Shown here piece after piece: positions 1,786 through 57,399 of a stretch of DNA of 64,000 bases; the stretch's first letter is position 1; each line of letters begins with the position of its first letter. Under the pieces are notes generated by a model. That model saw nothing but the letters and a program-made list of their open reading frames with translations. It had not been told where the DNA came from and did no database searches. Source of the stretch: an uncultured Prevotellaceae bacterium (lineage in GTDB: Bacteria > Bacteroidota > Bacteroidia > Bacteroidales > Bacteroidaceae). The translations under genes and the position numbers were made by a program. Where the stretch lies: positions 922 through 64,921 of the forward strand of contig ONRS01000027.1 in NCBI GenBank assembly GCA_900320255.1, read 5' to 3'.

Positions 1786-4700
1786 ATGAATACCAGAGAA
1801 CTGTACGACATACTGGACGAGCTGTCGCAGGCTGGACCGTCGGCGGCGGGCAACCGGCGCATGTACGAAATACTCATGATGGCTTGTAACGAGGCGACGA
1901 AGGATGAGGCTACGGGGTTCGGAAACCTGTTTTCGAAGGTGGAGTATCTCTGTAAGCGTCACCACATTGGGATGAAGGACCGGGTGGCCGTTCAGCAGAT
2001 GCGTCGAAGGGCCAACAGCAGCGAGGTGTCGTCGCCCGAGCAATGGCTACAGGACATCAGCGTCCTGCGCTATTTTGTTGCGGTGATTGGTGGGGAGAGG
2101 GTCGAAGGTCAGCGCTCAACGCTCAACCCTCAACCCTCATCGCTCAACGCTCAACGAAGCATTGTTCAGCAATGGGACGGGCGCTACATTCATGCTACGA
2201 CGAGTGACGGGGAAATCATCATAGACTATGGCGAGGGGGAGGACGGTCTTGACCAGACATACCTGAACGGGCTGCTGCATGAAGGGATGCAGCTCAATGT
2301 GCTGGAAGCAAAGCCGTGTGCCACCGACGGGCAGACCCCGTGTGTGCGTGGACTCGTGGTGGTGGAGCCCGACTTCCTGATAGACATTTCGGCCCTTGCG
2401 GCACTCTTTACCGACTATGGGCACCACGAGCTGCTTTACACCGTAGGACGGCTGCAGCAACGTGCCAACAGCCAGGCCATCCTGCTGGGTCTCTTTGCCG
2501 GTGCCGCTCTCGATGACATCATTAACCGTAGCGACTTCTCGTTTGGCCGTACGCTCATGGAGTCGTTCCGCGAGCAGGCTCTGCAGTTCTGTACGTGCCC
2601 AGACTTCTCGCCGCTGACCTTCAAGGCCGACGCCGCCCAGCAGGTGAAGAACCTGCAGGAGGTGGTTGAGGTGCTGTTTGGGCAGACGGCCAGCCGTGAG
2701 AAGGCCATTCTGGAACCATCATTTGTCTGTGAGGCATTAGGCCTGCAGGGGCGAGTTGACCTGATGACCACCGACCTGCGCCTGCTGGTGGAGCAGAAGG
2801 CAGGAAAGCTGTGGGGGCAGCCCTTAAAATACAAGGAGCAGCACTATGTGCAGTTGTTGCTCTACTATGGTGTGTTACGCTATAACTTCGGACTGAGTGA
2901 TGAACTCATAGACATGCGCCTGCTCTACAGTCGATATCCGGCCCACGAAGGGTTGATGGTGGTTAACTTCTACCGCACGTTGTTCCGTGAGGCCATAGCC
3001 CTGCGCAATCGGGTGGTGGCGCAGGAGTTCAGCATAGCCCGTGAAGGCTTCGGCAGCATTGTGCCACAGTTGACGGTAGATGGTGTTTATGGGAGTAAAG
3101 GGACGAAGGAGGACACCTTCTTCAAACGCTACATTGCTCCGAAGATAGAGCAGCTCAATGAACAGATTACCACATTGAACACTGTGGAGCGGGCTTATCT
3201 GGAGGAGCAGATGAACTTCGTCTATCGTGAGCAGCTGTACAGCAAACTGGGGTCACAACAGGGTCTGGGCAATGCGGCGGCAGACCTGTGGAACATGCCG
3301 TTGAGCGAGAAACGTGAGACGGGCAATATTTTTACCGGACTGGTCATTACCGACAGGGCACAGTCAGCAGAAGGTCGTGGCTATGACCTGCTGACGCTGA
3401 GTGTACCTGGGCAGGGCGATGACTTCCTGCCCAACTTCCGGCGTGGTGACATGGTCTATCTGTATGCCTATACAGGCGAGCCGGATGTCAGGCATAGCCT
3501 GCTCTTCCGAGGTCGTCTGCTGACCATTGAGACCAACCGCCTCGTGGTAAGACTGAACGACCGGCAGCAGAACCCAAAAGTGTTTAGTCCCTCACTCTAT
3601 GCCCTCGAGCACGACACGTCAGACATTGGCACCGTGAGTGCCATACGGTCGCTGATGGCTTTTGCTGCGGCACCGGCAGACAAGCGGCAGCTGCTGTTAG
3701 GCGAACGGGTGCCACAGGCCGATACCACCCAGCAGCTCTCTCGTAGCTATCATCCTAACTACGACGATATCCTGTTGCGCCAAAAACAGGCTCGCGACTA
3801 CTTCCTGCTGGTAGGGCCTCCCGGTACGGGCAAGACCTCAATGGCTCTCCGTTTCATGGTGGAGGAGGAGCTGGCGGCTCCCCATTCTTCACAGCACTCG
3901 GTGCTGCTTCTTTCCTATACCAACAGGGCGGTAGATGAGATGTGCGGCATGCTGATGGATGCCGGCATTGATTTTCTGCGGTTAGGCAATGAGACCTCCT
4001 GCGACGAGCGCTTTAGTGGCTACTTGCTGGATGCTGCCTTGGGCGATGCTCCGAAGTTGGAAACCATACGTCAGCGCATTCAGCAGACGCGCGTCGTGGT
4101 AAGTACCACCGCCACCCTGCAGTCGCGGCCGTTTATTTTCCAGCTCAAGCATTTCTCGCTATGCGTGGTTGACGAGGCATCACAGATATTAGAGCCAAAC
4201 ATCATCGGACTGCTGGCCAGCAGGGCCGTTGGCCGATTTGTGCTCATTGGCGACTACAAACAGCTGCCCGCCGTGGTGCAGCAGCCTGGCACCTACGAGT
4301 CACTCTTTGAACGCCTCATTCGCTGGGAGCGCAGCCAGGGGCGTCGGCAGTTCCTGGGCACCCTGCGCAAGCAAGGCCGCATGCACCCCGAAGTGGCAGC
4401 CTTTGCCAACGAAATGTTCTACAAGGAAGAACGCCTGGAGCCGGTGCCCTGCGAACACCAGACCGACACCAGCCTGCACTATGACGAACCATCAGAAGAC
4501 GAACTCGACGACCTGCTGAAAACCAGAAGGGTCATGTTTTTGGACTGTGGGCAACCGGTCTTGTCCACCACCCAACCCCCAACATCCGACAAGGTGAATG
4601 CCGCTGAGGCCCGTATTGTGGCCGACTGGCTACGCCGAATCTACAGGCAATACGGGGCAGACCGCTTTGACAGCAACAAAACGGTTGGTGTCATTGTGCC

Positions 4701-5019
4701 CTACCGTAACCAGATAGGCATGATACGCCGGGAGATAGAGCAACTGGGCATACCAGCCCTGCAGCAAGTGTCTGTTGACACGGTGGAACGTTACCAAGGC
4801 TCTCAGCGTGATGTCATCATTTATTCGTTCACCGTGCAACACCGTTATCAGTTAGATTTCCTCACGGCAAACTGCTTTGAGGAGAATGGCCGAATAATTG
4901 ACCGCAAACTGAATGTGGCCCTGACCCGGGCCCGCAAGCAACTACTAATAACGGGCTGCGCTGCCGTACTGCAACACAACCCGTTATTCGCAGAGTTTAT
5001 CCGAAGGTATGGACTATAG
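1786..5019 (+). CDS. Dna2/UPF1-like superfamily 1 helicase with N-terminal PD-(D/E)XK nuclease domain
   Basis: LEPSF..GLQGRVDL..VEQKAG nuclease motif; Walker A GPPGTGKT; YTNRAVD; DEASQ; LIGDYKQL; TVERYQG; KLNVALTRARK. Start at ATG 1786 (MNTREL). Confidence 0.88.
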   Translation: MNTRELYDILDELSQAGPSAAGNRRMYEILMMACNEATKDEATGFGNLFSKVEYLCKRHHIGMKDRVAVQQMRRRANSSEVSSPEQWLQDISVLRYFVAVIGGERVEGQRSTLNPQPSSLNAQRSIVQQWDGRYIHATTSDGEIIIDYGEGEDGLDQTYLNGLLHEGMQLNVLEAKPCATDGQTPCVRGLVVVEPDFLIDISALAALFTDYGHHELLYTVGRLQQRANSQAILLGLFAGAALDDIINRSDFSFGRTLMESFREQALQFCTCPDFSPLTFKADAAQQVKNLQEVVEVLFGQTASREKAILEPSFVCEALGLQGRVDLMTTDLRLLVEQKAGKLWGQPLKYKEQHYVQLLLYYGVLRYNFGLSDELIDMRLLYSRYPAHEGLMVVNFYRTLFREAIALRNRVVAQEFSIAREGFGSIVPQLTVDGVYGSKGTKEDTFFKRYIAPKIEQLNEQITTLNTVERAYLEEQMNFVYREQLYSKLGSQQGLGNAAADLWNMPLSEKRETGNIFTGLVITDRAQSAEGRGYDLLTLSVPGQGDDFLPNFRRGDMVYLYAYTGEPDVRHSLLFRGRLLTIETNRLVVRLNDRQQNPKVFSPSLYALEHDTSDIGTVSAIRSLMAFAAAPADKRQLLLGERVPQADTTQQLSRSYHPNYDDILLRQKQARDYFLLVGPPGTGKTSMALRFMVEEELAAPHSSQHSVLLLSYTNRAVDEMCGMLMDAGIDFLRLGNETSCDERFSGYLLDAALGDAPKLETIRQRIQQTRVVVSTTATLQSRPFIFQLKHFSLCVVDEASQILEPNIIGLLASRAVGRFVLIGDYKQLPAVVQQPGTYESLFERLIRWERSQGRRQFLGTLRKQGRMHPEVAAFANEMFYKEERLEPVPCEHQTDTSLHYDEPSEDELDDLLKTRRVMFLDCGQPVLSTTQPPTSDKVNAAEARIVADWLRRIYRQYGADRFDSNKTVGVIVPYRNQIGMIRREIEQLGIPALQQVSVDTVERYQGSQRDVIIYSFTVQHRYQLDFLTANCFEENGRIIDRKLNVALTRARKQLLITGCAAVLQHNPLFAEFIRRYGL
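2098..2156 (+). repeat. In-frame heptamer micro-repeat (GGGTCGA AGGTCAG then CGCTCAA/CCCTCAA units)
   Basis: Read directly; translates as RVEGQRSTLNPQPSSLNAQR inside the helicase. Confidence 0.9.
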
Positions 5020-5032
5020 TTTCTATAGAATA

Positions 5033-12996: not shown

Positions 12997-14781
12997 TTAA
13001 GCTTTTTGGCTTGCGGCCTGTACCTGGGCCATGACGCGCAGAAAGTTACCGCCCCAGAGTTTCTGAATGTCAGACTCGCTGTAGCGACAAAGCAATAGCG
13101 TACGTGTGAAGTTCAGCAGTTCTGAGGCATTAGCCAGTCCGCGTACTCCTCCGTCACCGTCGAAGTCGGTGCCCAGTCCAACATGGTCAATGCCCATCAC
13201 CTGTACGGCATGTTCCACATGCTTCATGACGTCATGGAGCGTGGCTTCGCCGTCACTACGCAGGAAGCCAGGGTAGAGTGTGATTTGCATGACACCGCCG
13301 GCAGCGGCCAGGGCACGCATTTGCTCGTCGGTAAGGTTACGCGGATGGTTGCAGAGGGCACGGCAACTGCTGTGTGAGCAGACAATAGGCTGGTTGCTGA
13401 TGAGCAATGCGTCGAAGAAACTCTTCTCATTGGCATGGCTCAAATCGACCATAATGCCCAGACGGTTCATCTCGCGGATAACCTGTTCGCCGAAGAGTGA
13501 CACGCCGTTGTGGGTGTTGCAGCCCTTGGCAGAGTCGCAGATGTCGTTGTCACCATTGTGACAGAGCGTCATGTAAGTGATGCCGCGCTGGGCGAAGTGG
13601 CGCAGGGTCTGCAGGTTGCCGTTGAGGGCCAGTCCGTTCTCGATGGCGAGCATGATAGACTTTCGCCCCTTGCGCTTGTCTTTATAAAGGTCGCCAGGTG
13701 TGCGCGCTATGCTAAGATAGTCTTTATGCTTGTCAACAATTTCCTCTATCTTGTCGAAGATAAGGTCGGCATATTCTGTAGGGCCATTGACGGGGAATGC
13801 CACTTGCGACGAGAAAGTCTCACCTATTTTTGGTTGCGGCAAGTAGGCTGCCATAATCACGGCATCCTGATGGCCTTCGGTCATCTTGTGCAAGTCAACG
13901 AGTATCTTGGGGTCACGACTTCCGAAGTTGATTCCCTGTGGGAAGAACATGGGGGTATCGCAGTGGGTGTCAAGTGTGAGTATGCGCTGATGCAAATTGC
14001 ATGTTTCGCGGTAGTGAGCAGCCTGTTTGACGAGCCACTGGAAGAGCTGCAGGCCGTCAGCGAGGCACTCGGGGTGCCATTGTACGCCAATAATGCTCTT
14101 GAACTCCAGGCTCTCTATGGCTTCAACGACACCGTCGGCAGCACGGGCCGTGACGCGGAAACGTTCACCGGGGTTGTCAACCGCCTGGTGGTGGAAAGAA
14201 TTGACGAAAATCGTTCTTCCTTCAGTTCCCGAAAGTAGCTCCTTATATAAATCATATAAGGTGGAGTCTTCTTCTATGATGACACTATGGGTTGGCTCAG
14301 AGCGGCGGGCATTTTGTGAGTGCTTAATGCGTAATCCTGACTCCTCGGCAATATCCTGTGCTACATGTCCGCCGAGGGCCATGGCCAATGTCTGTATGCC
14401 ACGGCAAATGCCAAGCATGGGAATCTGGCGGTTATATGCCAGCCGGGTGATAAGCAGCTCTGGTAAGTCGCGTTCGCTGTTGATGTTGCCTAAGCCCGTT
14501 GCGGGTTCCTCACCGCAGTAGAGCGGGTTATAGTCAGCCCCGCCGCTGAGCAGCAGACCGTCAAGATGTTCCAGTGTGTTGATAATGGCGTCAGTATCGC
14601 AAAGTGGTGGGATGATGACAGGTGTACCGCCGGCTTTCAGTACAGACTTATAGTAAGCTTCTCCGAGCTTACATTCTGGTTCGGTATAATTGCCCGTAAT
14701 ACCGATGACGGGCTTGCGCTGAGCTTCTGGAAATGTCGCATAGACCCTGTCCAGCTGCGACTGCCAATCAAAATAGTTCAT
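12997..14781 (-). CDS. Fusion of peptidase C26 (PuuD-like gamma-glutamyl hydrolase) and M19 membrane dipeptidase
   Basis: N-terminal LSGGAD, GICRGIQ, VNSFHHQ, GVQWHPE; C-terminal DTHCD, VDLSH, SHS..HPRNLTD, GTDFDG. Confidence 0.9.
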   Translation of the reverse strand: MNYFDWQSQLDRVYATFPEAQRKPVIGITGNYTEPECKLGEAYYKSVLKAGGTPVIIPPLCDTDAIINTLEHLDGLLLSGGADYNPLYCGEEPATGLGNINSERDLPELLITRLAYNRQIPMLGICRGIQTLAMALGGHVAQDIAEESGLRIKHSQNARRSEPTHSVIIEEDSTLYDLYKELLSGTEGRTIFVNSFHHQAVDNPGERFRVTARAADGVVEAIESLEFKSIIGVQWHPECLADGLQLFQWLVKQAAHYRETCNLHQRILTLDTHCDTPMFFPQGINFGSRDPKILVDLHKMTEGHQDAVIMAAYLPQPKIGETFSSQVAFPVNGPTEYADLIFDKIEEIVDKHKDYLSIARTPGDLYKDKRKGRKSIMLAIENGLALNGNLQTLRHFAQRGITYMTLCHNGDNDICDSAKGCNTHNGVSLFGEQVIREMNRLGIMVDLSHANEKSFFDALLISNQPIVCSHSSCRALCNHPRNLTDEQMRALAAAGGVMQITLYPGFLRSDGEATLHDVMKHVEHAVQVMGIDHVGLGTDFDGDGGVRGLANASELLNFTRTLLLCRYSESDIQKLWGGNFLRVMAQVQAASQKA

Positions 14782-14900
14782 AGTTCATCGTTCAAAGTTT
14801 GAAGGTCGAAGGTCGAAGGTCAAAGGTCAAAGGTCAACGCTCCACGCTCAACCCTCAACACTCCACGCTCAACCCTCAACACTCCACGCTCAACCCTCAA
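14775..14900 (+). repeat. 18 phased heptamers filling the asnC to peptidase spacer
   Basis: AGTTCAT x2, CGTTCAA, AGTTTGA, AGGTCGA x2, AGGTCAA x3, then nine CGCTCCA/CGCTCAA/CCCTCAA/CACTCCA units; 126 bp = 18 x 7. Confidence 0.95.
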
Positions 14901-15354
14901 CGTTGACTGGTATCTCTCGCCTGATGCTTTGTTCAAGTGAGATGAGGGTCTCTGTAGCCACCACGCCGGGAATGTCCTGCAGCTTCCCGTTGAGCAGTTC
15001 CATGAGCTGTTCGTTGTCACGGGCATAGAGCTTGACAAGCATGGTGTAGGGACCAGTGGTAAAGTGGCACTCCACCACTTCAGGAATGTGTTGAAGTCGC
15101 TCTACTACGTTTTTGTACATACTACCACGCTCGAGGGTGATGCCGACATAGGTGCAAGTGGAATACCCTAAGCTCTTCGGATTCACGTCGAATCCGCTAC
15201 CTATGATGACATCACCCTCAATGAGGTGTTGTACGCGTTGATGGACAGCTGCGCGCGAAACATTACACTCGGCAGCTACATCCTTAAAGGCAATACGCGC
15301 ATTCTTTGACAGGATGCTTAGTATCTTTTTGTCTAAGTTGTCAATCTTGTCCAT
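14890..15354 (-). CDS. asnC: Lrp/AsnC family transcriptional regulator
   Basis: IDNLDKKIL..NARIAF..VSRAAVHQRV HTH; PEVVECHFTTG ligand-binding domain. Confidence 0.9.
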   Translation of the reverse strand: MDKIDNLDKKILSILSKNARIAFKDVAAECNVSRAAVHQRVQHLIEGDVIIGSGFDVNPKSLGYSTCTYVGITLERGSMYKNVVERLQHIPEVVECHFTTGPYTMLVKLYARDNEQLMELLNGKLQDIPGVVATETLISLEQSIRREIPVNVEG

Positions 15355-15365
15355 TATAAGAGGGT

Positions 15366-17248: not shown

Positions 17249-17286
17249 TTGCTTTGAATATAATGATTTAATTTTTCTGTTCTTCT

Positions 17287-17892: not shown

Positions 17893-17952
17893 AATTTTCT
17901 CTATAATATGTTTTATAAAACGGCGGCAAAGGTAGTATAATTTAAAGAGACT

Positions 17953-18126: not shown

Positions 18127-20070
18127 ATGAAACAGAAAGCCACATTTAAATGCATGCTGACCGTTACATTCCTCGTTGTAACAGCCATGCTTACAGGGTG
18201 TAAGACAACGCAAAATGCTCAACCCTCAACCCTCAACGCTCAACGCTCAACCCCCATCGGCATGATTCTCGATGCAGACTTCGGCAGTTCTACCGACGAC
18301 CTCTTTGCCCTCATGATGCTGAACCATTACATTGATGAAGGAAAAGTCGATTTGAAGGGTATCATTGTTGACCGTGAAGGTGAGGACAATGCCGGCGTCG
18401 TAGATATTTTCAATACCTACTACGGTCACCCCGAGATACCCGTCGGACTGGAGCGTAACGGTGTGAAGAACCCCCGTTGTTTTATTCCCTATAACGGCAT
18501 CTGCAAACTGAAGAACGAGCAGGGACAGCCACTTTTCAAGCGCAGCTTCGATGCCAGCCAGTGTCCTGACGGCTATAAGCTCTACAGGCAGTTGCTCAGC
18601 AAGGCAGACGACAAGTCGCTTGTTGTGGTGGCCATTGGCTTTGCCACCACGCTGTCACAGCTCTTTGAGTCTGGTGCCGACGAATTCTCGCCCCTTAGTG
18701 GCGTGGAGCTCTTTGGCCAGAAAGTAAAGGCTGTTTATATACAGTCGGGTCGTTTTGAGGCCGGCGACAGTCTTTGTGGCTATAACATGCGTGCTGCCGC
18801 CCGGCAGTCAGCAGTGTTCTACGAAAAGCTGCCTCACTCAGTCGAGCTGATTATGTCGCCCAGTAATATTGGTGACCAGATGAACTACCTGCCAAAAGAT
18901 GTCATGGCCGACCTTTCTTACTCCGACCTGAATCCTATCAAGGCCGTCTATTCTAACTATCACTGCGACACAGGCCAGCGCATGTGGGATACTAACTGTC
19001 TGGTCAATGCCGTAGAGGGTGACGGAGCCTACCATCTTTCGCCCCGTGGATGGGTGACCTTTGTGGAGCGCGGTCAACAGTCGCTCATGCTTTTCAAGCC
19101 TGACCCTGCAGGCAACGCCCGCTATCAGATTCCCGGCGACTCTTATTACAACGAGGTGAAGCTGATGGACATTCGTCGTTATAACCGCATGAACAGCCAC
19201 CCTGCCGCCTTCACCATAGAGGCTCCGCAGCCCCAGCTCACCGGTACGTCAGCCCTGTCATGGGCCAAGCCGCGCATCAGCCTGCTCATGGATAAGTTCT
19301 TCGGGACGGCGGGCAATCATCTTGACCCCGACGACGTGCGCATGCTCTTCCGCCCCATTGGCTATAACGGCACCAACCCGGCAGACTATGCTCAGGCAGA
19401 GCAGCTGCTGGAGGACACACTCTATAGCGTCATGCTCAGCCGTGCCGTAAACTCTGGTAATAAAGACCTTGTCATCGTTACAGGAGCACCGGCATGTGGT
19501 AAGACCACGGCTCTCCGCCAGCTTAAGCTGAAGAATGCGGGCGTCATTTACGATGCTGCACTTACTGGTCCGGGGCGTCTGGAACAGGTTGTAGGTAAAG
19601 CCTACAAGGCAGGCATCGAGAAGGTGACGGTCGTCATGGTCTATAATGATGTGCTGACCTGCTACAAGAATGCCGTCAACCGTGGTGCGAACACTTGGAA
19701 CTACGTGCCTTTAGACTACATGGTCAGCGCCTACCGTGACAATGTAGGGAAGCTGGCTGCCATTGGCAGTGCATACCCCAACATAGAAATTGTTCCCATT
19801 GACATGACTGGCAATAAACCCATGGAGCGTGTCAGCATTGACGAGGCTCTGGCGTGGAGTCATGACGTGACAGACGAGGAACTGAACGCCCTGTTCACCT
19901 ATCTGCTTACTGAGATAGAATCAGGCGAAATCAGTTCTGCCTACGTTCCGGCTGCAGCAGGTAACGTGCTCGCTATTCCCCGTCTGGATGGAGCAAACCT
20001 CTCACTGGCTCGTGAGATTAACCAAAAGGTAGAGGCTATTCGCGAAGCTAACCGCATGAACAGACAGTAA
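18127..20070 (+). CDS. Lipoprotein: nucleoside-hydrolase-like domain fused to a zeta-toxin/kinase-like P-loop domain
   Basis: Lipobox LTGC; ILDADFGSSTDDLFAL (DxDxxxxxDD), AIGFAT, MWD; C-terminal VIVTGAPACGKTT and IYDA. Confidence 0.72.
   Translation: MKQKATFKCMLTVTFLVVTAMLTGCKTTQNAQPSTLNAQRSTPIGMILDADFGSSTDDLFALMMLNHYIDEGKVDLKGIIVDREGEDNAGVVDIFNTYYGHPEIPVGLERNGVKNPRCFIPYNGICKLKNEQGQPLFKRSFDASQCPDGYKLYRQLLSKADDKSLVVVAIGFATTLSQLFESGADEFSPLSGVELFGQKVKAVYIQSGRFEAGDSLCGYNMRAAARQSAVFYEKLPHSVELIMSPSNIGDQMNYLPKDVMADLSYSDLNPIKAVYSNYHCDTGQRMWDTNCLVNAVEGDGAYHLSPRGWVTFVERGQQSLMLFKPDPAGNARYQIPGDSYYNEVKLMDIRRYNRMNSHPAAFTIEAPQPQLTGTSALSWAKPRISLLMDKFFGTAGNHLDPDDVRMLFRPIGYNGTNPADYAQAEQLLEDTLYSVMLSRAVNSGNKDLVIVTGAPACGKTTALRQLKLKNAGVIYDAALTGPGRLEQVVGKAYKAGIEKVTVVMVYNDVLTCYKNAVNRGANTWNYVPLDYMVSAYRDNVGKLAAIGSAYPNIEIVPIDMTGNKPMERVSIDEALAWSHDVTDEELNALFTYLLTEIESGEISSAYVPAAAGNVLAIPRLDGANLSLAREINQKVEAIREANRMNRQ
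18216..18257 (+). repeat. In-frame heptamer repeat after the lipobox (NAQPSTLNAQRSTP)
   Basis: TGCTCAA CCCTCAA CCCTCAA CGCTCAA CGCTCAA CCCCCAT. Confidence 0.9.
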
Positions 20071-20076
20071 CTAACT

Positions 20077-22821
20077 ATGAACTATAAAAGCATTGTCGTC
20101 GGTTGTTTGTTGGCAGCAGTCAGTGTTCCTTCTGCAGCCCAGGACCACCGGCTTTGGTATAGTAGGCCTGCCACTCAGTGGGTAGAGGCACTGCCCATAG
20201 GCAATTCTCATTTGGGAGCAATGGTCTATGGTGGTACTGATGTAGAGGAACTGAAGCTCAACGAGGAGACCTTCTGGAGCGGTTCACCCCATAACAACAA
20301 CTCTACTGAGTCGTTGCAGTACCTGCCTCAGGTGCGGCAACTCATCTTTGAGGGTAGGGAAGAGGAGGCTCAGCAGTTGATAGACCAGCACTTCATTAAA
20401 GGGCCGCACGGCATGCGTTTCCTGCCTCTATGCAGTGTCCGTTTGCAACTGGGCCACACTCATGTCGCTGATTACCGTCGCGAGCTCAGTCTTGGCGATG
20501 CTCTGGCCACAACGCGTTATACGTGTGATGGCGTAGCTTACGAGCGCACAGCATTCGCCTCGCTGGCAGACCCTGTCATCATTGTTCGTCTCAAGGCCGA
20601 CAAGCCTGGTGCCCTTTCTTTTAAAGTGGGACTTGAGGGAGAAAGGTCAAAGGTCAAAGGTCGAGGTACGAGGTACGAGGTACGAGGTACGAGGTGCGAA
20701 GGTCAAAGGTCGAGGTACGAGGTACGAGGTGCGAGGTGCGAAGACACGCTCAACACTCCACGCTCAACGCTCAACACTCCACCCTCAACGCTCAACGCTC
20801 CACTCTTAACACTCCACCCTCCACTCACCCTCACCGTTCAGGGAGCGGAGCATGAGGGTGTGAAGGCCGGACTGACCGCAGAATGTCGGTTAGAGGTGGA
20901 GACCGACGGCGAAGTGCAGCAGGGTGACAGCGTGCTCTGCATAGCCCATGCTACCACTGCTACACTTTATATAGCGGCGGCTACCAACTTCGTGAACTAC
21001 CACGACATTAGCGGGAATCCCACTGAAAAGAACGAGAAGGCGTTCGCGCAGTTACGGGGCAGGACTTACGACCAGTTGCTGGAAGCGCATCTCTCAAAAT
21101 ACCACGAGCAGTATAACCGTGTGGTCTTCTGCTTGCCAAAGTCTGCAGAGTCAGCACTTGAGACGGATCAGCGGATAGAGGCGTTTGGACAAAGGTCTAA
21201 GGGCGAAGGTCAAAGGTCGAGGTACGAGGTACGAGGTACGAGGTGCGAGGTACGAGGTACGAGGTGCGAAGACACGCTCAACGCTCAACACTCCACGCTC
21301 AACCCTCAACCCTCCACGCTCAACCCTCAACCCTCCACGCTCCACGCTCAACCCCCAATAGACCTTGACCTGGTATCGCTGATGATGCAGTATGGCCGTT
21401 ATCTGCTCATTTCGTCATCACAACCGGGTGGTCAGCCTGCCAATCTGCAAGGTGTGTGGAACGACAAGGAGTTTGCCCCCTGGGACTCAAAATACACCAT
21501 AAACATCAATGCCGAAATGAATTATTGGCCGGCACTGGTGGCTAATCTTGCAGAGACCCAGCAACCGCTGTTCGATATGATTGAAGACCTGAGTGTGACA
21601 GGAGCCGTTACTGCCCGGCAAATGTATGGGTGTGGTGGTTGGATGGCTCATCACAATACAGACCTGTGGCGCATTGCCGGGCCAGTTGATGGTGCTCCGT
21701 GGGGCATGTTCCCAACGGGTGGAGCCTGGCTTACTACTCATCTTTGGCAGCACTTCCTCTTTACGGGTGACAAGCAGTTCCTGGCTAAGTATTTCCCCAT
21801 CATGAAAGGGGCGGCAGACTTCCTGGTTGACTATATGCAGAAAGACCCGAAGACGGGCTGGCTCGTCACCGTGCCTACCGTGTCGCCCGAACATGGACCG
21901 AAGGGGAAACGGACACCTGTGACAGCAGGTACAACGATGGATGCCCAGATAGCCCGTGACGTGCTTTCTAATACCATTAAGGCTGCCAGCGTGCTAATAG
22001 ATAATGGTCAAAGGTCAAAGGTCAAAGGTCAAAGGTCGAGGTACGAGGTACGAGGTTCGAGGTGCGAAGACACGCTCAACGCTCCACGCTCCACGCTCCA
22101 CGCTCAACTCTCAAACCTCAAATCAGCTTTAGAGCATCTTCCTCCGATGCAAGTGGGACAATACGGGCAATTACAGGAATGGCTCGTTGACGGTGACGAC
22201 CCGAACGATGAACACCGCCACATCTCACATCTGTATGGGTTGTACCCATCTGACCAGATTACGCCTCAGCAACCAGAGCTGTTTGCTGCTGCCGCCACTA
22301 CGCTGAAGCAGCGTGGTGACATGGCAACGGGCTGGAGCCTCGGGTGGAAGATTAATTTCTGGGCACGCATGCAAGACGGTAATCATGCCTTCCGCATCAT
22401 TCAGAACATGCTGCATCTGCTGCCCAGTGACGACAAAATGCAGCAGTACCCTGACGGACGAACTTATCCGAATCTTTTCGATGCTCATCCGCCTTTCCAG
22501 ATTGACGGGAACTTCGGCTTTACGGCGGGCGTGTGCGAGATGCTGCTGCAGTCAGCATACGATCCTCTCTCTGACAGCGGTGCTTTCATCCATCTGCTTC
22601 CTGCCCTGCCTGATGCCTGGAGTGAGGGTGAGGTGAAAGGCCTGCGTGCCCGTGGCGGCTTTACTGTCGATATAGCATGGAGTAATGGGAAACTGAAGAA
22701 GGCCGTTATACGCTCTGCCTTAGGCGGATTGCTCCGTCTGGGCTCTTCAGTACCCCTGCAAAAAAACGAGCTCCAGACAGAGCCTGGAGCTACGTATGTG
22801 GTTTTACCAATTGAGAATTAA
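20077..22821 (+). CDS. Glycoside hydrolase family 95 (alpha-L-fucosidase/L-galactosidase) with three repeat-derived insertions
   Basis: ALPIGNSHLGAM, LNEETFWSG, YGRYLLISSS, PANLQGVW, YTININAEMNYW, SPEH, HRHISHLYG, HPPFQIDGNFG, GLRARGGF. Confidence 0.93.
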   Translation: MNYKSIVVGCLLAAVSVPSAAQDHRLWYSRPATQWVEALPIGNSHLGAMVYGGTDVEELKLNEETFWSGSPHNNNSTESLQYLPQVRQLIFEGREEEAQQLIDQHFIKGPHGMRFLPLCSVRLQLGHTHVADYRRELSLGDALATTRYTCDGVAYERTAFASLADPVIIVRLKADKPGALSFKVGLEGERSKVKGRGTRYEVRGTRCEGQRSRYEVRGARCEDTLNTPRSTLNTPPSTLNAPLLTLHPPLTLTVQGAEHEGVKAGLTAECRLEVETDGEVQQGDSVLCIAHATTATLYIAAATNFVNYHDISGNPTEKNEKAFAQLRGRTYDQLLEAHLSKYHEQYNRVVFCLPKSAESALETDQRIEAFGQRSKGEGQRSRYEVRGTRCEVRGTRCEDTLNAQHSTLNPQPSTLNPQPSTLHAQPPIDLDLVSLMMQYGRYLLISSSQPGGQPANLQGVWNDKEFAPWDSKYTININAEMNYWPALVANLAETQQPLFDMIEDLSVTGAVTARQMYGCGGWMAHHNTDLWRIAGPVDGAPWGMFPTGGAWLTTHLWQHFLFTGDKQFLAKYFPIMKGAADFLVDYMQKDPKTGWLVTVPTVSPEHGPKGKRTPVTAGTTMDAQIARDVLSNTIKAASVLIDNGQRSKVKGQRSRYEVRGSRCEDTLNAPRSTLHAQLSNLKSALEHLPPMQVGQYGQLQEWLVDGDDPNDEHRHISHLYGLYPSDQITPQQPELFAAAATTLKQRGDMATGWSLGWKINFWARMQDGNHAFRIIQNMLHLLPSDDKMQQYPDGRTYPNLFDAHPPFQIDGNFGFTAGVCEMLLQSAYDPLSDSGAFIHLLPALPDAWSEGEVKGLRARGGFTVDIAWSNGKLKKAVIRSALGGLLRLGSSVPLQKNELQTEPGATYVVLPIEN
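20644..20830 (+). repeat. Composite heptamer element 1 in GH95
   Basis: (AGGTCAA)n AGGTCG (AGGTACG)n AGGTGCG block twice, then AAGACA, then (CVCTCMA)n. Confidence 0.95.
21187..21357 (+). repeat. Composite heptamer element 2 in GH95
   Basis: Same block order and the same junction GAGGTGCGAAGACACGCTCAAC. Confidence 0.95.
22005..22121 (+). repeat. Composite heptamer element 3 in GH95
   Basis: Same block order and junction. Confidence 0.95.
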
Positions 22822-35104: not shown

Positions 35105-35160
35105 AAAGGTAAAAAAGTAAAAAGGTAAAAAAGTGAAAAAGTGAAAAAGTGAAAAAGTTA
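35105..35160 (+). repeat. Octamer array AAA(A/G)GT(A/G/T)A x7 ending on the start codon
   Basis: Fills the susD1-susC2 spacer; the last base of the last unit is the A of ATG. Confidence 0.92.
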
Positions 35161-40927: not shown

Positions 40928-40975
40928 TAAGGTGAAAATGTGAAAAAGTGAAAATGTGAAAAAGTGAAAAAGTTA
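40928..40975 (+). repeat. Octamer array x6 ending on the start codon
   Basis: TAAGGTGA AAATGTGA AAAAGTGA AAATGTGA AAAAGTGA AAAAGTTA then TG. Confidence 0.92.
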
Positions 40976-43383: not shown

Positions 43384-43387
43384 GGGA

Positions 43388-46800: not shown

Positions 46801-48817
46801 TCAGCTCTTCGTCGTCATCTACGTAGGTCAGCTTCGTGCCGGGAGCCACGTCCTCGAAGCTCGTGATGACCACGCCGTCGCGCAGCAGGTCGATGTGCGT
46901 GAGGTTAGCGGTCAGCGCTTCGCCGCCGATGCTCTTTGTCGGGGCGGTGAAGGTGACGGTGGCTATGGGCTTCTCAGCGTCGGCAACGGCGGCGAGGTCG
47001 GTGACGGCAGCGGGAGCCGTCAGCACGGTCTCGCTGACGAGCATGTTATCCACGCGCAGTGAAGCGTGGTCAGCATCGCTGGTGGCATGAATGCCGAAGC
47101 GGTAGTAGCCCGACGTGCTGACGGTGATGAACTTGTTGCTCAGCGTCAGGGGTATCTCGGTCTGCAGCTCTGTGCTCTCGATGATGGTCTGAAGCGGAGC
47201 TGGCAGTGTGGAGAGGGGCGACAGGTCAGCAATGTTCTCGAACAGCGCCACCTCCACACGCTCGCTGTAGGCATTCGACGAGCAGTGGGCGTCAATGGCG
47301 AAACTGTAGGTCTTGCCTGCCTCTAAGCGAATGGCGGGCGAGATGAGCCAGTCGTCAGCCTGGTTGTCGCTGTTGTATTTATAGGATGCCTCGCCCTCAT
47401 AGTGCTGCCATGAGCTGCCGTCGTAGTTTGCATCAATGACGGTGAACCGTTCCCATTCGTCGGTAGTGTCGAAACCGTTGGCATACGGCAGCGTCTCAAT
47501 GGGCTTGTTGGGGTCTTCTATCTGTATGGTGAGGTCGTCCATCCAGATGAAGGCGCTGACATCAACGGTCTGTGTGTTGTCAATGAGCTTGTTCTGCGAT
47601 TTCAGCACCTTCGCCTCTGCGTCCCATGTCATGGTGAAGTCGGTAAGGTCAGCCCCGTCGGAGCCCACGGCATAATGGGTGGTTCCCTCCATGGTGCCTA
47701 TCTGCTGCAGGCCGCTGAAGGTGACCTGGTCGCCATCGATGGTGCCCTTTATCCAGGCTTGGTTGAGGGGCGACGTGTTGTCAAGCATCGCCTGCCACTG
47801 ACCGAAGACGGCTGTGAAGACTCCCTGCACATAGACATCGTTACCATCGAAGCCGATGGTGACCGTGCCACTGAAGGGGTTCACCTGGTTAGTTCCAGCA
47901 GGCACACGGTAGTGGCCTTTGGCATACCATGTTTCGGTCTGCAAGCCTGCAGGAGGCGTCACGGTGATGACGGGCAGCGGCTCGAAGTCGCTCTGGTAGG
48001 TCCACACCGTCTCGTAGTCGCCCTGCCAGGCAAAGGCATCGTCGTCGTCCCAGAACAGTCCCATGAACATTTCTTCTGATGAGTTCTGGAGTGTGATGGT
48101 GCCCTCCTCATCATCGATGGCGAAGGTGAAGTTGCCACCGTTGTAGCTGTCATGGCAGCTGAAGCCAATGCCGTCGTTCACACCCCAGCGCACGCTGAAG
48201 GTGATGGTGGCATCAGGGTTATAGTAAATGGGCTGCTTGGCGGGAATGGTGAGGGTGCTGCCCTCGCGTGTACCCTTCACCCAGGCACCGGTGGGATAGC
48301 TGGAGAGGATGTTGCGCACATAGACCGTGCCATCCTCGCACTCCACAATGTGCACGTTGCCGCTCTGGGGGATGTTCTGCAGGCCTCCGTCGTTGCTGTA
48401 GTTCATGCCGCTACGGGTATAGACTTTGCGTACGCCCTCGGCAGGCGAGACAATGATGCCGTGTTCGTCCAACAGCTCACCCGTGGCAGCCCTCATGGGC
48501 AGCTTTTGAGCGTTGAGGAGAGAGCCCCAGCCTCCCCCCAACCCCCTCCAACTGGAGGGGGAGTTCTGCTGTGCCAAAAGCCTCCCCCTTGGGGGGAGGT
48601 TGGAGGGGGCTCCCTTCGACCTTCGACCTTTGACCTTAGCCCTTTGACCGTCAAGAGCCAGCCTTCGACCTTCGGCCTTTGACCTTTGACTAATAAAATT
48701 AAACACCTTTGCCTTGGGCGCGGCCTTCTTCGTGTGGAAGTCCTGCGCACTGGCTGTCATCATGCTGCCGCCAAGAGTGAGCAAAGCAGCGAGCATCCAT
48801 AGTTTAGTTTTCTTCAT
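43835..48817 (-). CDS. Large secreted adhesin-like protein (cleaved-adhesin/choice-of-anchor J and FN3 modules, T9SS-like C-terminus)
   Basis: Signal peptide; three (A)DD(W/Y)LISP-type modules; FAIRHTS; FN3-like repeats; C-terminal IYTTDGRLV..GIYIINGKKTVIN. Confidence 0.8.
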   Translation of the reverse strand: MKKTKLWMLAALLTLGGSMMTASAQDFHTKKAAPKAKVFNFISQRSKAEGRRLALDGQRAKVKGRRSKGAPSNLPPRGRLLAQQNSPSSWRGLGGGWGSLLNAQKLPMRAATGELLDEHGIIVSPAEGVRKVYTRSGMNYSNDGGLQNIPQSGNVHIVECEDGTVYVRNILSSYPTGAWVKGTREGSTLTIPAKQPIYYNPDATITFSVRWGVNDGIGFSCHDSYNGGNFTFAIDDEEGTITLQNSSEEMFMGLFWDDDDAFAWQGDYETVWTYQSDFEPLPVITVTPPAGLQTETWYAKGHYRVPAGTNQVNPFSGTVTIGFDGNDVYVQGVFTAVFGQWQAMLDNTSPLNQAWIKGTIDGDQVTFSGLQQIGTMEGTTHYAVGSDGADLTDFTMTWDAEAKVLKSQNKLIDNTQTVDVSAFIWMDDLTIQIEDPNKPIETLPYANGFDTTDEWERFTVIDANYDGSSWQHYEGEASYKYNSDNQADDWLISPAIRLEAGKTYSFAIDAHCSSNAYSERVEVALFENIADLSPLSTLPAPLQTIIESTELQTEIPLTLSNKFITVSTSGYYRFGIHATSDADHASLRVDNMLVSETVLTAPAAVTDLAAVADAEKPIATVTFTAPTKSIGGEALTANLTHIDLLRDGVVITSFEDVAPGTKLTYVDDDEELTGTTYNYQVVAYNADGEGDKSDVVTVRLNYVFDIPYVADFTQDAVGGQFTMIDANDDNSRWEWDGGTRATYEYNSDNAADDYLISPALHMEAGKKYTITVDAGSAGYTERFEIVVGREASVEGLNVKVLENCEVTEEDHKEFEATFEATETGAYYVAIHAISDPDMYELWIHKVTIDFAPEGTAPAAPELAVTAGEKGALQATVTINAPEKDNDGNTLTQNITKIELYRDNSVIKEFENVTPGAVLTYTDTEVDEIGNHTYQAIPYNDSGIGTKSQKLTVYVGPDVPDIVTGVQATDQTTTVLLTWDPVTETGRNGGYVNPADVEYVIYACYPNSTYTDEEVATVKGATTCQLDFATNEGEQGFQKWYVAARNAAGESYVDEVSSALIITGAPYDLPVVEGFAGGSLHYYWDSNSYPLLFSQSSDDDGTAMALTALEAGDIFLISGKLNLKDATNPTLLFDAAGFGVSSLSVIGSTNGGERQTLATETVTSSGYTTVKVSLNSLKNGNFAQAGLTATITNPTAVDSWGDIEEEGDALIIDNIRIVDLFAHNLGVELSAPATVQAGKTVTITATVTNWGEQPATGYTVKVLSGEDVLLQETVSDALAPFASRVFTAELATTVFDEAADLPVTVQVEYSADEKTEDNTAETTIALTVSDAAPAENLTAENTDAGVELNWSAPTSEPGEYTETFDDNNTFPSFSIGGITATEHNGSIGEWTMYDGNGSDVYSWQEAGDYENRYQPSAWMAFDIVKAGFTGEAGHSGTQVMMSMCPVPDDGGTAAAADHWLISPLLPGTEQEISFFLRAITSQYGAESFEVLASKTDNQPNSFELIESFMTDEESWTQFSVTLPEGTKYFAIRHTSTDVFGVMLDDVTFNYAGAVTSYNIYCDGQLVATVEDGVTTYTVPADQLTDGDHTFAVTAVYANGQESQPASATLTVTGIEGLLITGHGQLPADIYTTDGRLVRRQATTLSGLKGIYIINGKKTVIN
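48506..48690 (-). repeat. In-frame AGGTCRA heptamers, REP doublet and CTCAA heptamers after the signal peptide
   Basis: Encodes SQRSKAEGRR..KVKGRRSKGAPSNLPPRGRL..SPSSWRGLGGGWGSLLNAQ. Confidence 0.9.
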
Positions 48818-49864: not shown

Positions 49865-51974
<2,110 letters not shown>

Positions 51975-51982: not shown

Positions 51983-53935
51983 TTAAAATTTCGCTTTCCT
52001 CACGCTGCTGCCCTGCTTGACGATGTAAGTGCCGGGGGCAAGCTGGTCGAGGCTGTTGCCGACGTACTTGCCTGACAGGTCGTAGATGAGCGTTGAGGGT
52101 TGAGCGTTGAGGGTTGAGGGTCGAGCATTGTCTGCTATTCCCGTAGGTGGCGTGTAGGTGTAGCCGAGCTTGTTGTCTATCCAGCCTATGCGCTGGTTCA
52201 TGTAGCGGCGCACGTTCTGCACCTCGGCGGCATAGCTGCCCCAGATGCGCGGGTTCTGGTGGACGTAGTCGTTCATGATGGGCCAGCGCAGGAAGTTGAG
52301 CTGCTGCGACTGCTGCAGACGCTCCTCCCACTCGTCAATAAAGGCTGTCATGCTGGCTTCGGTGAGGCCGCCTTCGCGCACTGACTTCCAGATGTCGAAG
52401 AGCTGGTGGCGCGCATTGGTGTTGTTCACGACAATGTTGTTGACAAAGGTGCGCATGTTGCCGGCACAGCTACCGTTGGTACGGTAGATGTAGTCGCCCA
52501 GGTTCATAATGGGGTACGTACGGATATCGTTATCGAAGGCGAGGTCGAAGTCCCACACGGGGCCTGTGTAGATTACGTCGTCGCCGCGCTCCTTATACAT
52601 ATATACGCTCCAGTAGGTGTCGGTATTGCCTGAAAGCTCGCCGACGAGGAAGTGGCGGAGGAACGTGTTCAGGTCAAGATAGGTCTGCCACTGGCTCTCC
52701 ATCTTGTTGAAGTGGTTACGTATGTAGTTGAACTGCTGGTCGGTGATTTCGTCTTCGTCGGGCGACTTAATGGTCACAGGGTTCCCCTTGTTGGAGTTGA
52801 ACCATGATACCTCTTGATTGGCGTATGCGTCAATCTCGAAGAAGTAGCCGCCGGTAAGGGCATCGCCGCTGTTGTCCTCGGGTGCCATCTCGGTAATCTC
52901 CACACGACCGGGGTTCACCTCCACCTGGTCACACAGCTGGTAGCAGCCTTTGTACTCACCGTTCAGTATGACATCGACGGCCGTGGCGTAGGGCGTGTAG
53001 GGCATGCCCATGCGGCGGCTGAGCTCAAAGGCTAAGATGTTGCGCATGAGCGTCTTGTCACCATAGTTGTTGATGAGTGTCCACTTCTTGGCCTTGGCCG
53101 GCGCGTCGAGCACGTTCTGCTTCTTGTTGAACTTAATACGGTAAGGCTTCTTGGGGAAGGAGCGTGACGCATTGCCACGTTCACGAATGGTGCCAGGCTC
53201 CGAGAGTAGCGTGCCGTCGGGCGATATAATGGTAATCAGGCAAGTAATGTCTGTCTCCTTGTCGAAGGGAATGACATTATTCTCCGTGTGGATGGTGACG
53301 GTAGGCAGGTTGGTGAGCGTGGAGGGTTGAGCGTTGAGGGTTGAGGGTTGAGCGTTGAGCGTGGATGGTTGGCCTTCGACCTTTGACCTTTGACCTTCGA
53401 CCTTAGACCTTAGACCATCAACCTGTTCTCCATAAAACTCCAGTTCGGCAATATTGCAGCGGGCATCTGATGGGCCCACGTAGCGCACGTAGCGGAAGGG
53501 AACGGTGCAGCTGACGTCAGCATACGACATCTGGCCGATGACTCCCTCGGTGGTAATGATGTACAGGGGCAGGGCGTCCATGAAGTCAGGACTGTTGGCT
53601 CCTTCGAACACACCGAGCACCACGCGCTTCGGACCGTTGCTGTCGTTACGGGGTGACCAGCCTACGCGGGTGATGACGTGGGGCGTGCCGAGGTCCAGGC
53701 CCGTCCATGTGTAGCTGCGCTCCCATGAGGCGAAGCACGTGTTAAGGTCGCCGTCGAACGCCATTTCGCGGGTGTTGACCGTGGTCGATTGTCCGAAGGT
53801 GGAGTAATCGACCGACTCTAATGTTCCAATGACCGTACCGGTAAGGGGCTGAGCGTTGAGCGTTGAGGGCTGAGCGTTAGCGTTAAGGTTAGCGTTAACG
53901 AGCCCGAGGCAGAGAGCCAAAATAAGTCTGTTCAT
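51983..53935 (-). CDS. Secreted CotH-family kinase with N-terminal discoidin-like domain
   Basis: MAFDGDLNT..LDLG..YVRY; RGNAS..KKPYRIK, DKTLMRN, NGEYKGCY, GPVWDFDLAF; T9SS-like tail IYDLSGK. Confidence 0.88.
   Translation of the reverse strand: MNRLILALCLGLVNANLNANAQPSTLNAQPLTGTVIGTLESVDYSTFGQSTTVNTREMAFDGDLNTCFASWERSYTWTGLDLGTPHVITRVGWSPRNDSNGPKRVVLGVFEGANSPDFMDALPLYIITTEGVIGQMSYADVSCTVPFRYVRYVGPSDARCNIAELEFYGEQVDGLRSKVEGQRSKVEGQPSTLNAQPSTLNAQPSTLTNLPTVTIHTENNVIPFDKETDITCLITIISPDGTLLSEPGTIRERGNASRSFPKKPYRIKFNKKQNVLDAPAKAKKWTLINNYGDKTLMRNILAFELSRRMGMPYTPYATAVDVILNGEYKGCYQLCDQVEVNPGRVEITEMAPEDNSGDALTGGYFFEIDAYANQEVSWFNSNKGNPVTIKSPDEDEITDQQFNYIRNHFNKMESQWQTYLDLNTFLRHFLVGELSGNTDTYWSVYMYKERGDDVIYTGPVWDFDLAFDNDIRTYPIMNLGDYIYRTNGSCAGNMRTFVNNIVVNNTNARHQLFDIWKSVREGGLTEASMTAFIDEWEERLQQSQQLNFLRWPIMNDYVHQNPRIWGSYAAEVQNVRRYMNQRIGWIDNKLGYTYTPPTGIADNARPSTLNAQPSTLIYDLSGKYVGNSLDQLAPGTYIVKQGSSVRKAKF
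52087..52128 (-). repeat. In-frame heptamers before the C-terminal domain (ARPSTLNAQPSTL)
   Basis: TGAGCGT/TGAGGGT units on the + strand. Confidence 0.9.
53314..53422 (-). repeat. In-frame AGGTCRA then CTCAA heptamers in the interdomain linker
   Basis: Encodes LRSKVEGQRSKVEGQPSTLNAQPSTLNAQPSTL. Confidence 0.93.
53846..53900 (-). repeat. In-frame hexamer then heptamer repeat at the signal-peptide end
   Basis: Encodes VNANLNANAQPSTLNAQP. Confidence 0.9.
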
Positions 53936-55175: not shown

Positions 55176-55341
55176 CGCATGATTTCATGGTGCCTTTTGC
55201 TTGACTTTATGTCGAGTCTTACTTGACTTTATGATGAGTTTTGCATGACTTTATGGTGAGTTTTCGTGCAAAAGTCACCTCAAAAGCGTGCAAAACCCGA
55301 TACCAAGTCATGCAAAACCATACACCAAAGCTCGCGCAAAA
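55176..55341. repeat. Head-to-head arrays of 22-bp units
   Basis: TGAYTTYATG at 55180, 55202, 55224, 55246; inverted YGCAAAA at 55267, 55289, 55311, 55335. Confidence 0.8.
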
Positions 55342-56973: not shown

Positions 56974-57141
56974 TTAGAACGGGGAATCCTCGAGCTCATA
57001 ATCGCCTTTTTTAGACATTGTATTTGTCACTTGTGTTTCGGGGCTTGCGTTTAGCAATTGGTTCGTCACATGCAGTTCAACCACCTCGCAGGTTGGCTGG
57101 ACATAAGTTTGTTTGGTCTTTTTCATCATTCTGATTTCCAT
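56974..57141 (-). CDS. Small 55-aa protein with a KxxYxxPxxxVV..LL..S motif (absent from the ORF track)
   Basis: Hand translation MEIRMMKKTKQTYVQPTCEVVELHVTNQLLNASPETQVTNTMSKKGDYELEDSPF; ends 33 nt upstream of the lipoprotein start. Confidence 0.7.
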   Translation of the reverse strand: MEIRMMKKTKQTYVQPTCEVVELHVTNQLLNASPETQVTNTMSKKGDYELEDSPF

Positions 57142-57324
57142 TTTAATTCAAATATTATTAGTAATCTGCTTTTTTACTTTCGAGCGTGCGAAGGTAATAA
57201 AAATCAAACAAATAAAGCAAAAAGAAGAAGCAAAAAAAGTTAAAGTGCTGAAAATGATTGACTCATATCACGAAGACAGGAGTTCTCTGATCTGTTATAA
57301 AACATTACAGCAGATACCCAGTTC

Positions 57325-57399
57325 TGAGCGTTGAGCGTTGAGTGTTGAGTGTTGACGTTGACGTTGTCGTTATCGTTGACGTTATCGTTATTAACGTTA
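57325..57399 (-). repeat. Hexamer then heptamer array directly after the receptor stop codon
   Basis: TGAGCGT x2, TGAGTGT x2, then CGTTGA/CGTTAT units on the + strand. Confidence 0.9.

What the first reader, a model, noticed from the sequence alone, without database searches (positions are those of the whole stretch)
2098..57399. Window-wide, polarised micro-repeat family invading proteins in frame
Seen: more than a dozen arrays built from a shared vocabulary: A = AGGTCRA, B = AGGTRCG, C = CVCTCMA (7-mers) and H = AACG(T/C/A)Y-type 6-mers. They lie in frame in the helicase, NH-fusion, GH95 (x3), HTCS, GH5, adhesin, esterase and CotH (x3), and between genes at 14775 and 57325. Read on the CTCAA strand, mixed arrays keep one order: A(-B)-C at 2098, 14803, GH95 x3, 48506 and 53314, or H-C at 26443, 50000, 53846 and 57325. 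C is always 3'. The C strand is stop-free in all frames (STLNAQP/R) while its complement contains TGA, which fits the orientation bias inside CDSs. Inference: fixed order and shared units in unrelated genes are hard to explain by local slippage alone and suggest templated spread or homogenisation (gene conversion, or a trans-acting nuclease or RT), analogous to Rickettsia palindromic elements and cyanobacterial STRR heptamers. No mobilising gene is in the window.
Basis: partly seen in the sequence, partly recalled or inferred. Interest (0 to 1): 0.82.

Follow-up and report, generated by a model that had tools for sequence, protein, structure and literature searches.

The report
Polar heptamer repeats that rewrite proteins
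This rumen Prevotella genome carries hundreds of short 6-9-base repeat tracts that match the mirror-image "arms" around small four-helix-bundle genes, always join in one direction, differ between strains by whole swapped blocks, and now encode linkers, a helix and apparent signal peptides of many proteins; they likely spread by being copied from one tract into another during DNA repair.

Summary
The arrays are real and genome-wide: 677 blocks in about 16 unit families, 0 in a shuffled control, and 166 of 2094 called genes hold one. Eleven families match the inverted arms of four-helix-bundle (PF05635) genes here or in congeners. The scan found that link before on other DNA.

The arm form found upstream of those genes always precedes the downstream form (74 to 0 within 40 nt, 32 to 0 inside genes), and stop codons do not explain this.

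Same-species alleles show whole-block swaps and a clean 30/33-nt module inserted at different arrays, with matching donors elsewhere in the genome. Slippage alone is therefore not enough. In 21 of 153 GH95 homologues, lineage-specific units overwrite the same helix with no large insertion, and 28 of 49 N-terminal blocks encode hydrophobic, signal-peptide-like stretches.

Likeliest mechanism (inferred): microhomology-primed copying between tracts, then slippage, filtered by reading frame. No RT or Y1 transposase was found in this 84%-complete assembly, and the enzyme and the source of the polarity are unshown.

The parts
2098..2156 (+). A (about 2 units) then C block, in frame in the UPF1/IGHMBP2-like helicase (1786-5019)
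   Evidence: 12 conspecific alleles vary in 7-aa steps, 3 of 12 carry an 11-aa module
14773..14902 (+). J-A-C composite spanning the dipeptidase start codon (14779-14781) and the AsnC stop codon (14890-14892)
   Evidence: 7-nt deletion in two runs
18218..18253 (+). C block just after the N-terminal signal region of ORF 18127-20070 (no Pfam or NCBIfam hit)
   Evidence: 1 of 12 alleles has the 10-aa module and 1 of 12 has C changed to D
20642..20832 (+). GH95 site 1: A-B-A-B, junction, C; low-confidence loop in the model (residues 191-242)
   Evidence: replaced by other filler in 2 of 15 conspecific alleles
21192..21358 (+). GH95 site 2: A-B, junction, C (residues 378-423)
   Evidence: 10-aa module in 3 of 15 alleles
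22006..22128 (+). GH95 site 3: A-B, junction, C, E; the tail overwrites part of an amphipathic helix
   Evidence: module in 2 of 15 alleles
23224..23257 (-). H-like hexamer tract in ORF 22804-23433
26442..26512 (-). H-C-D composite in the hybrid two-component sensor (24116-28204)
28551..28605 (+). H tract encoding an Asn/Val/Asp linker in the GH5 protein
35105..35158 (+). P-family 8-mer array between SusD stop and the next start
   Evidence: same unit flanks a PF05635 gene split over C123/C131
37975..38017 (+). P-family 8-mer array, intergenic
40932..40973 (+). P-family 8-mer array, intergenic
48506..48690 (-). A block, DUF559-type palindrome and two C units in the N-terminus of the cleaved-adhesin protein
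   Evidence: different filler in 1 of 9 alleles
49998..50080 (+). C (upstream form) then H, encoding the n- and h-like regions of the esterase N-terminus
52087..52130 (-). C block near the CotH C-terminus
53314..53424 (-). A-C composite in CotH; B-junction-D-C in one conspecific allele
53846..53898 (-). H-C composite at the CotH N-terminus; alleles show stepwise growth from a look-alike seed
57325..57391 (.). Intergenic C/H composite just after the stop of ORF 57397-59853

Best explanation
The arrays are gene-less tracts of the repeat units that form inverted arms around four-helix-bundle (PF05635) genes, and they likely spread and change by microhomology-primed templated repair (gene-conversion-like copying) from one tract into another or into a look-alike seed, after which slippage likely changes unit number and the reading frame filters what survives. 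Shown: shared units with cassette arms; strict local order (upstream-arm form, then downstream-arm form); shared junction and module sequences at many loci; block swaps and clean 30/33-nt inserts among conspecific alleles, with donors elsewhere in the genome; repeated overwriting of one helix in other species. Inferred: copying runs from a broken or nicked 3' end. Order is kept because donors descend from inward-facing arm pairs and because mixed pairs, unlike same-family pairs, cannot form a tight hairpin. The four-helix-bundle paralogues probably recognise their own unit. Not shown: the cutting or copying enzyme.
For: Cassettes: 5 of the 9 PF05635 hits in the genome have an inverted pair of their own unit on one contig (C, B, D, E, G; the C pair read by eye), a sixth (P) is split over two contigs, and the other two show arrays on one side. 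Among 121 PF05635-like ORFs found in the fetched loci, 89 had arrays on both sides and 68 of these were inverted pairs, against a mean of 2.9 after shuffling partners. A, H, I, J and S units flank such genes in congeners. Polarity: 74 to 0 at gaps up to 40 nt (18 pair types to 0; 43 to 0 without H; 32 to 0 inside genes, where the reverse order would be equally stop-free), 112 to 3 at 100 nt, and 11 to 9 for same-family pairs 150-1500 nt apart. At gaps up to 20 nt, 51 pairs are mixed-family and 6 same-family. Copying: one junction string occurs in 17 B arrays, leading into C in 8 and D in 9; the module has 28 BLAST hits of 20 nt or more, most at 94-100% identity. CotH allele P0205 has B-junction-D-C where 12 others have A-C, and that composite exists at C47 (93% over 28 aa). 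The site-1 filler of P0003 matches C89 (86% over 37 aa), including its spacer. The module appears in four genes and three frames among alleles more than 96% identical. Overwriting: 21 of 153 GH95 homologues carry different 7/8-mer units on the site-3 helix, needing 16 changes on the tree, at least 9 forced by well-supported branches.
Against: No enzyme was identified: PF00078 and PF01797 gave no match (assembly 83.5% complete). A test for 3'-directed capture of donor flanks was flat: 119 inner against 120 outer flanks of 637 share a non-unit 10-mer (random 39-64), so about 80% of blocks show no captured flank. Plain strand invasion of double-stranded donors would not by itself forbid the reverse junction, so the origin of 18 junction types to 0 needs an added assumption. 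Array density tracked PF05635 number only weakly across 25 genomes chosen by me (rho 0.39, p 0.053; 14-40 kb each): two genomes with 0 hits and one with 1 hit were array-rich. The polarity of H rests on one cassette, and that of H and J was set after seeing cassettes. Alleles were seen as proteins only, largely from metagenome assemblies, and P0002 and P0003 each come from one contig.
Confidence: 0.55

Rival explanations
1. Directed repeat writing: each four-helix-bundle paralogue programs a polymerase or RT (with or without an RNA template) to add its unit to free 3' ends, in the manner of telomerase. Extending both ends of a break gives upstream form then downstream form, and extending one end gives a single arm. 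Ectopic copying is secondary.
For: It predicts the 74 to 0 rule directly, the many single arms (456 of 540 clusters), unique flanks and overwriting in place. Unit length clusters on the protein tree (10 changes against 22 shuffled, 0 of 200). Tandem-repeat synthesis by a bacterial RT is known for DRT10 (PMC12632851, search listing only).
Against: No RT was found. PF05635 has no known catalytic role (PMC4990558, passages). Fixed junction and module strings need copying anyway. The tree clustering may be plain linkage, since the C cassette sits at the same locus in three genomes.
Confidence: 0.2
2. MITE-like transposition: arm pairs move as whole hairpin elements, nest inside each other, then lose the gene or one arm.
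For: Same-family hairpins exist (45 pairs within 100 nt), some with shared inner sequence. Nested C-A-B-C type composites occur (C13, C26). The 30/33-nt module behaves as a clean insertion.
Against: Most clusters are single arms. Insertions into or beside arms should give reverse junctions, and none were seen at 40 nt or less. Helix overwriting without a large insertion and stepwise growth at the CotH N-terminus do not fit. No target duplication was seen, and no Y1 transposase was found.
Confidence: 0.15
3. Local slippage from chance seeds, with selection for protein-binding sites or for compatible peptides, explains everything.
For: Copy number varies by one unit between genes and by three units inside genes. 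Stop codons explain the orientation of A and C in genes.
Against: It cannot produce non-periodic modules shared by 28 loci, block swaps at one site, or a strict order of different families.
Confidence: 0.07
4. Assembly artefact.
For: Metagenome-assembled genome; unitigs break at GH95 sites 1 and 2.
Against: Identical proteins on up to 36 contigs and frame-keeping length variants in many assemblies; equivalent arrays in other species.
Confidence: 0.03

Closest known systems
ORF-bearing 23S rRNA intervening sequences (S23p/PF05635; Coxiella, PMC4990558, passages read)
   Same: A four-helix-bundle gene inside terminal inverted repeats, with tandem heptamers of strain-variable number upstream of the ORF.
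   Different: Here the cassettes lie between protein genes. There are many paralogues with different units, and the units occur hundreds of times without the gene, including in frame.
Heptamer SSRs of Xanthomonas and Nostoc (PMC4692102, passages) and Beggiatoaceae (PMC4679880, passages); cyanobacterial STRR (recalled)
   Same: Genome-wide heptamer tracts. In Xanthomonas the G-rich form follows stop codons and 70-75 convergent inverted pairs occur, the same intergenic bias as here (96 to 32 after stops).
   Different: One dominant unit per genome, mostly intergenic, origin left open. The passages I saw report no mixed-family polar composites, block swaps or link to PF05635.
Small dispersed repeats (SDR) of Nostocaceae (Elhai 2008, PMC2527708, not held; seen only through PMC5861425 and PMC2884548 passages; sizes and frame-keeping recalled)
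   Same: The 30/33-nt module is tiny, hairpin-forming, a multiple of three, and inserts cleanly at a fixed point inside another repeat.
   Different: Different phylum and sequence; it targets C-unit tracts, not HIP1, and is polymorphic within the species.
Rickettsia palindromic elements (PMC10969869, passages)
   Same: Repeated DNA inserted in frame in unrelated genes.
   Different: RPEs are about 150-bp elements with a conserved peptide; these are periodic 6-9-mers that grow, swap and overwrite native residues.
Borg tandem repeats (PMC9879509, passages)
   Same: Fast-evolving in-frame tandem repeats that create disordered protein regions.
   Different: Borg units are multiples of three, unique per locus and judged local in origin; here the units are not multiples of three, are shared genome-wide and show exchange between loci.

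Membership tests
PF05635/TIGR02436-type repeat-armed cassette arms | Unit identical to the inverted arms of a four-helix-bundle gene | tested here: met
   B, C, D, E, G, P in this genome; A, H, I, J, S in congeners; not established for K, M, N, Q
PF05635/TIGR02436-type repeat-armed cassette arms | Gene enclosed between the arms | tested here: not met
   No PF05635 match on the window's contig; window arrays are gene-less
23S rRNA intervening sequence | Location in rRNA and excision from RNA | tested here: not met
   No Rfam hit in the window; RNA-library contigs run through the 14803 array (contigs cannot prove transcription)
MITE | Terminal inverted repeats | tested here: inconclusive
   45 same-family pairs within 100 nt, but 456 of 540 clusters are single arms
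MITE | Target-site duplication | tested here: inconclusive
   None evident for the module; no close empty DNA alleles were available for the composites
MITE / REP-RAYT | Cognate transposase in the genome | tested here: inconclusive
   No PF01797 match; other transposase families not searched; assembly 83.5% complete
SDR-like small mobile repeat (the 30/33-nt module) | Under 40 nt, dispersed, fixed insertion context, presence/absence among relatives | tested here: met
   (definition partly recalled; Elhai 2008 not held)
Rickettsia palindromic element | About 150-bp palindromic element encoding a conserved peptide | tested here: not met
   Arrays are periodic and variable in length and composition
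DGR / DRT10-like RT system | Reverse transcriptase gene | tested here: not met
   No PF00078 match; incomplete assembly, and divergent RTs could be missed
Phase-variable contingency SSR | On/off frameshifting by unit gain or loss | tested here: inconclusive
   Listed alleles mostly keep frame; one truncated allele shifts frame in the 23224 tract (P0176); protein clusters favour in-frame forms

The most novel reading that the evidence does not exclude
Four-helix-bundle paralogues program a telomerase-like, strand-specific writing of their own 6-10-nt unit at DNA ends. This would explain the long-noted excess of bacterial heptamer repeats, the strict arm polarity, and a route by which selfish repeats become signal peptides and amphipathic helices, because a 7-mer read in frame gives a 7-residue heptad.
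Probability: 0.2. Interest if true: 0.93.

Novelty: new variant of a known kind. Interest (0 to 1): 0.72.

Why it matters
Heptamer repeats are the commonest long simple repeats of many bacteria, and their origin is open (PMC4679880 and PMC4692102, passages). This genome gives three testable handles: a strict order rule tied to a gene family of unknown function, segregating alleles that catch blocks and a 30/33-nt module in the act of moving, and repeated domestication of the repeats as linkers, a conserved helix and likely signal peptides in carbohydrate-active and surface proteins of a common rumen bacterium. It also warns that such peptides in Prevotella proteins are repeat-derived and not ancestral domains.

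Tried and rejected
No close sister species was found: the best DNA matches among 264 scored congeners were mostly 70-79% identical (137 more were not scored), and the locus scans gave homologues of at most 66% identity. Empty sites of the composites could therefore not be aligned at DNA level.

RT, Y1 transposase and Rfam searches were blank. The only recurrent cargo between same-family arms 150-1500 nt apart was the four-helix-bundle gene (4 of 11 pairs). Inner against outer flank sharing was symmetric. Array load against PF05635 count was not significant. Reads were laid only on 14000-24000, so arrays beyond 24000 have no read check.

Rejected: 'C always last', a single family, and ancient shared linkers (orthologues lack them). 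A hand-defined family census was not run; families were derived from the data, with G-skew as the first orientation label and H and J relabelled from cassettes. The K, M, N, N2 and Q families were left out of the polarity count for lack of a cassette. In the GH95 tree the three array regions, the first 30 residues and one duplicate locus were removed. No complex prediction was run, as the question is protein-DNA.

Literature: nine searches found no paper linking PF05635 genes to orphan heptamer arrays, polar composites or block swaps; TIGR02436 had 0 hits. Subscription papers such as Elhai 2008 and Mrazek 2007 were not readable, and no supplements were read.
Full report
Observation. The window is part of contig C107 of a 2.75-Mb, 83.5%-complete assembly. 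Its proteins are labelled Prevotella sp. in conspecific records, and matching runs are from cattle and sheep gut. A genome census found 460 7-mer, 77 8-mer, 53 6-mer and 26 9-mer arrays against 2 in a shuffled control. Clustering the units from the data gave 677 blocks of three or more units in about 16 families, none in the control. C is the largest family (209 blocks). With my own rough gene calls, 166 of 2094 genes hold an internal block.

Source of the vocabulary. The genome has 9 PF05635 matches. Each intact one is flanked by its own unit: B, C, D, E and G as inverted pairs, P as a pair split over two contigs, and two more with arrays on at least one side. GxxExxY and DUF559 genes likewise have their own inverted flanks. 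In the fetched loci, 121 PF05635-like ORFs were found; 89 had arrays on both sides and 68 of those were inverted pairs, against a mean of 2.9 and a maximum of 9 after shuffling. A, H, I, J and S, which lack a cassette in this incomplete assembly, flank such genes in congeners. Unit length clusters on the protein tree (10 changes against 22 shuffled), which may be linkage only. Earlier notes of this scan report this gene-arm link in at least 12 other genomes, one of them a rumen Prevotella with in-frame copies; I confirmed it independently here.

The real order rule. I call the strand form found 5' of the cassette gene 'up' and its complement 'down'. Adjacent blocks of opposite form run up then down 74 times and down then up 0 times within 40 nt (18 pair types to 0; 43 to 0 without H), and 112 to 3 within 100 nt. 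Same-family pairs 150-1500 nt apart are balanced at 11 to 9, so the rule is local. A-C, B-C and H-C are special cases. C is not always last: it precedes D or E in some composites. Stop codons explain why A is up and C mostly down on coding strands, but not the order, which is 32 to 0 inside genes. Between genes the up form follows stop codons (96 to 32) and the down form precedes starts (40 to 20), as described for Xanthomonas heptamers (PMC4692102, passages). Close pairs are mostly mixed-family (51 against 6 within 20 nt), as expected if tight same-family hairpins are unstable (inference).

Empty sites and alleles. GH95 orthologues at about 70-80% identity lack all three inserts. An AlphaFold model places the inserts in low-confidence loops (191-242, 378-423, 645-664) of an otherwise folded protein, with the repeat-derived tail of site 3 modelled as helix (the inserts have few aligned sequences, which lowers confidence by itself). 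Fifteen conspecific GH95 alleles, more than 99% identical outside the arrays, differ in 7-residue steps. Three carry a 10-residue module at site 2 and two carry it at site 3, and two have site 1 filled by other repeat-derived sequence. The same module, or its 33-nt sister, appears in 3 of 12 helicase alleles, 1 of 12 alleles of ORF 18127 and 1 of 9 adhesin alleles, in three reading frames. One of 13 CotH alleles has B-junction-D-C in place of A-C. At most 15 members per cluster were listed, of 26-55. Donors exist in the genome: that composite at C47, the site-1 filler at C89, and the module at 28 places, inserted between two units with no evident duplication. The B junction recurs in 17 arrays. 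Slippage cannot make these; copying between loci can.

Effect on proteins. In 21 of 153 GH95 homologues a 7- or 8-mer array of a lineage-specific unit covers the site-3 helix with no large insertion and keeps its hydrophobic pattern (control 0.6 arrays per set). On the tree this needs 16 changes, at least 9 forced. A 7-mer read in frame repeats every 7 residues, and units with two suitably spaced T give hydrophobic residues 3-4 apart, which fits an amphipathic helix. C has one such residue and gives linkers. Of 49 genes with a block near the first Met, 28 have a hydrophobic block (mean hydropathy above 1) where a signal-peptide core is expected, mostly the P family; the window's esterase is a related case built from H. 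Secretion was not tested.

Mechanism. I favour microhomology-primed templated repair between tracts, seeded by look-alike native sequence, followed by slippage and frame selection (0.55). Copying, polarity and selection on frame are shown; the break, the enzyme and any role of the four-helix-bundle protein are inferred. Against this reading: no RT or Y1 transposase, no inward bias in captured flanks and unique flanks at about 80% of blocks, a weak link between array load and gene number, and no simple reason why invasion of double-stranded donors should never make the reverse junction. That last gap keeps open directed, telomerase-like writing of units at 3' ends (0.2), which predicts the order outright. 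MITE-like movement of whole arm pairs (0.15) fits the intergenic hairpins and the module but not single arms or overwriting.

Known and new. The nearest known things are ORF-bearing rRNA intervening sequences with heptamers (PMC4990558, passages), orphan heptamer repeats (PMC4679880, PMC4692102, passages), SDR elements (PMC2527708 not held; seen through PMC5861425 and PMC2884548), RPEs (PMC10969869, passages) and Borg repeats (PMC9879509, passages). The arrays work like STRR tracts with SDR passengers and affect proteins like RPEs, but they are not members of the RPE, IVS or DGR families by the tests above. Nine literature searches found no report of the polarity rule, the block swaps or the helix overwriting; subscription papers were out of reach. 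Verdict: real, strange and testable; the cassette link is a repeat within this scan, while the order rule and the allele evidence are the addition. Interest 0.72.

Noticed in passing
G000:C29:2248-2282 and 27 other places: A 33-nt hairpin-forming module (with a 30-nt sister at C62 and C154) inserted cleanly inside C tracts and inside a second repeat; present or absent among conspecific alleles; SDR-like.
   Followed up: yes
window 24904-24960, 43350-43385, 48525-48612; G000:C89, C98: DUF559-type G/C-rich palindromes, about 10 loci by BLAST, three in the window and at least one in frame; related arms flank the single DUF559 gene.
   Followed up: partly
window 23752-23893, 43388-43595, 55177-55264: Intergenic 22-mer tandem arrays; 117 such arrays genome-wide with many different units.
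   Followed up: no
G000:C93:169-510, C152:12815-13150, C3:27682-28002, C5:4-96: GxxExxY (PF13366) genes flanked by their own repeats (9-10-nt units at C93, C152 and C5; longer ones at C3), inverted where both flanks are seen; a nuclease-fold parallel to the four-helix-bundle cassettes.
   Followed up: partly
G000, many intergenic arrays: The outer flank of C, E, G, I and J blocks often carries a motif that I recall as the complement of the Bacteroidetes -7 promoter element, so many arms abut promoters.
   Followed up: no
G000:C47:35578-39780: One gene holds 11 repeat blocks, more than the window's GH95 (9).
   Followed up: no
G000:C102:807-1310: Four-helix-bundle gene with the TIGR04258 suffix domain, preceded by a 9-mer array and lying after a gene whose end resembles a restriction-modification M subunit (recalled, not tested).
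   Followed up: partly
window 25-1110 (+) and 5033-6718 (-): Two DUF2207 genes face each other around the helicase and share a Gly-rich C-terminal tract.
   Followed up: no
window 17960-18100: Many contigs of other organisms match here with loose ends, suggesting a conserved small non-coding element; Rfam at gathering threshold gave nothing.
   Followed up: no
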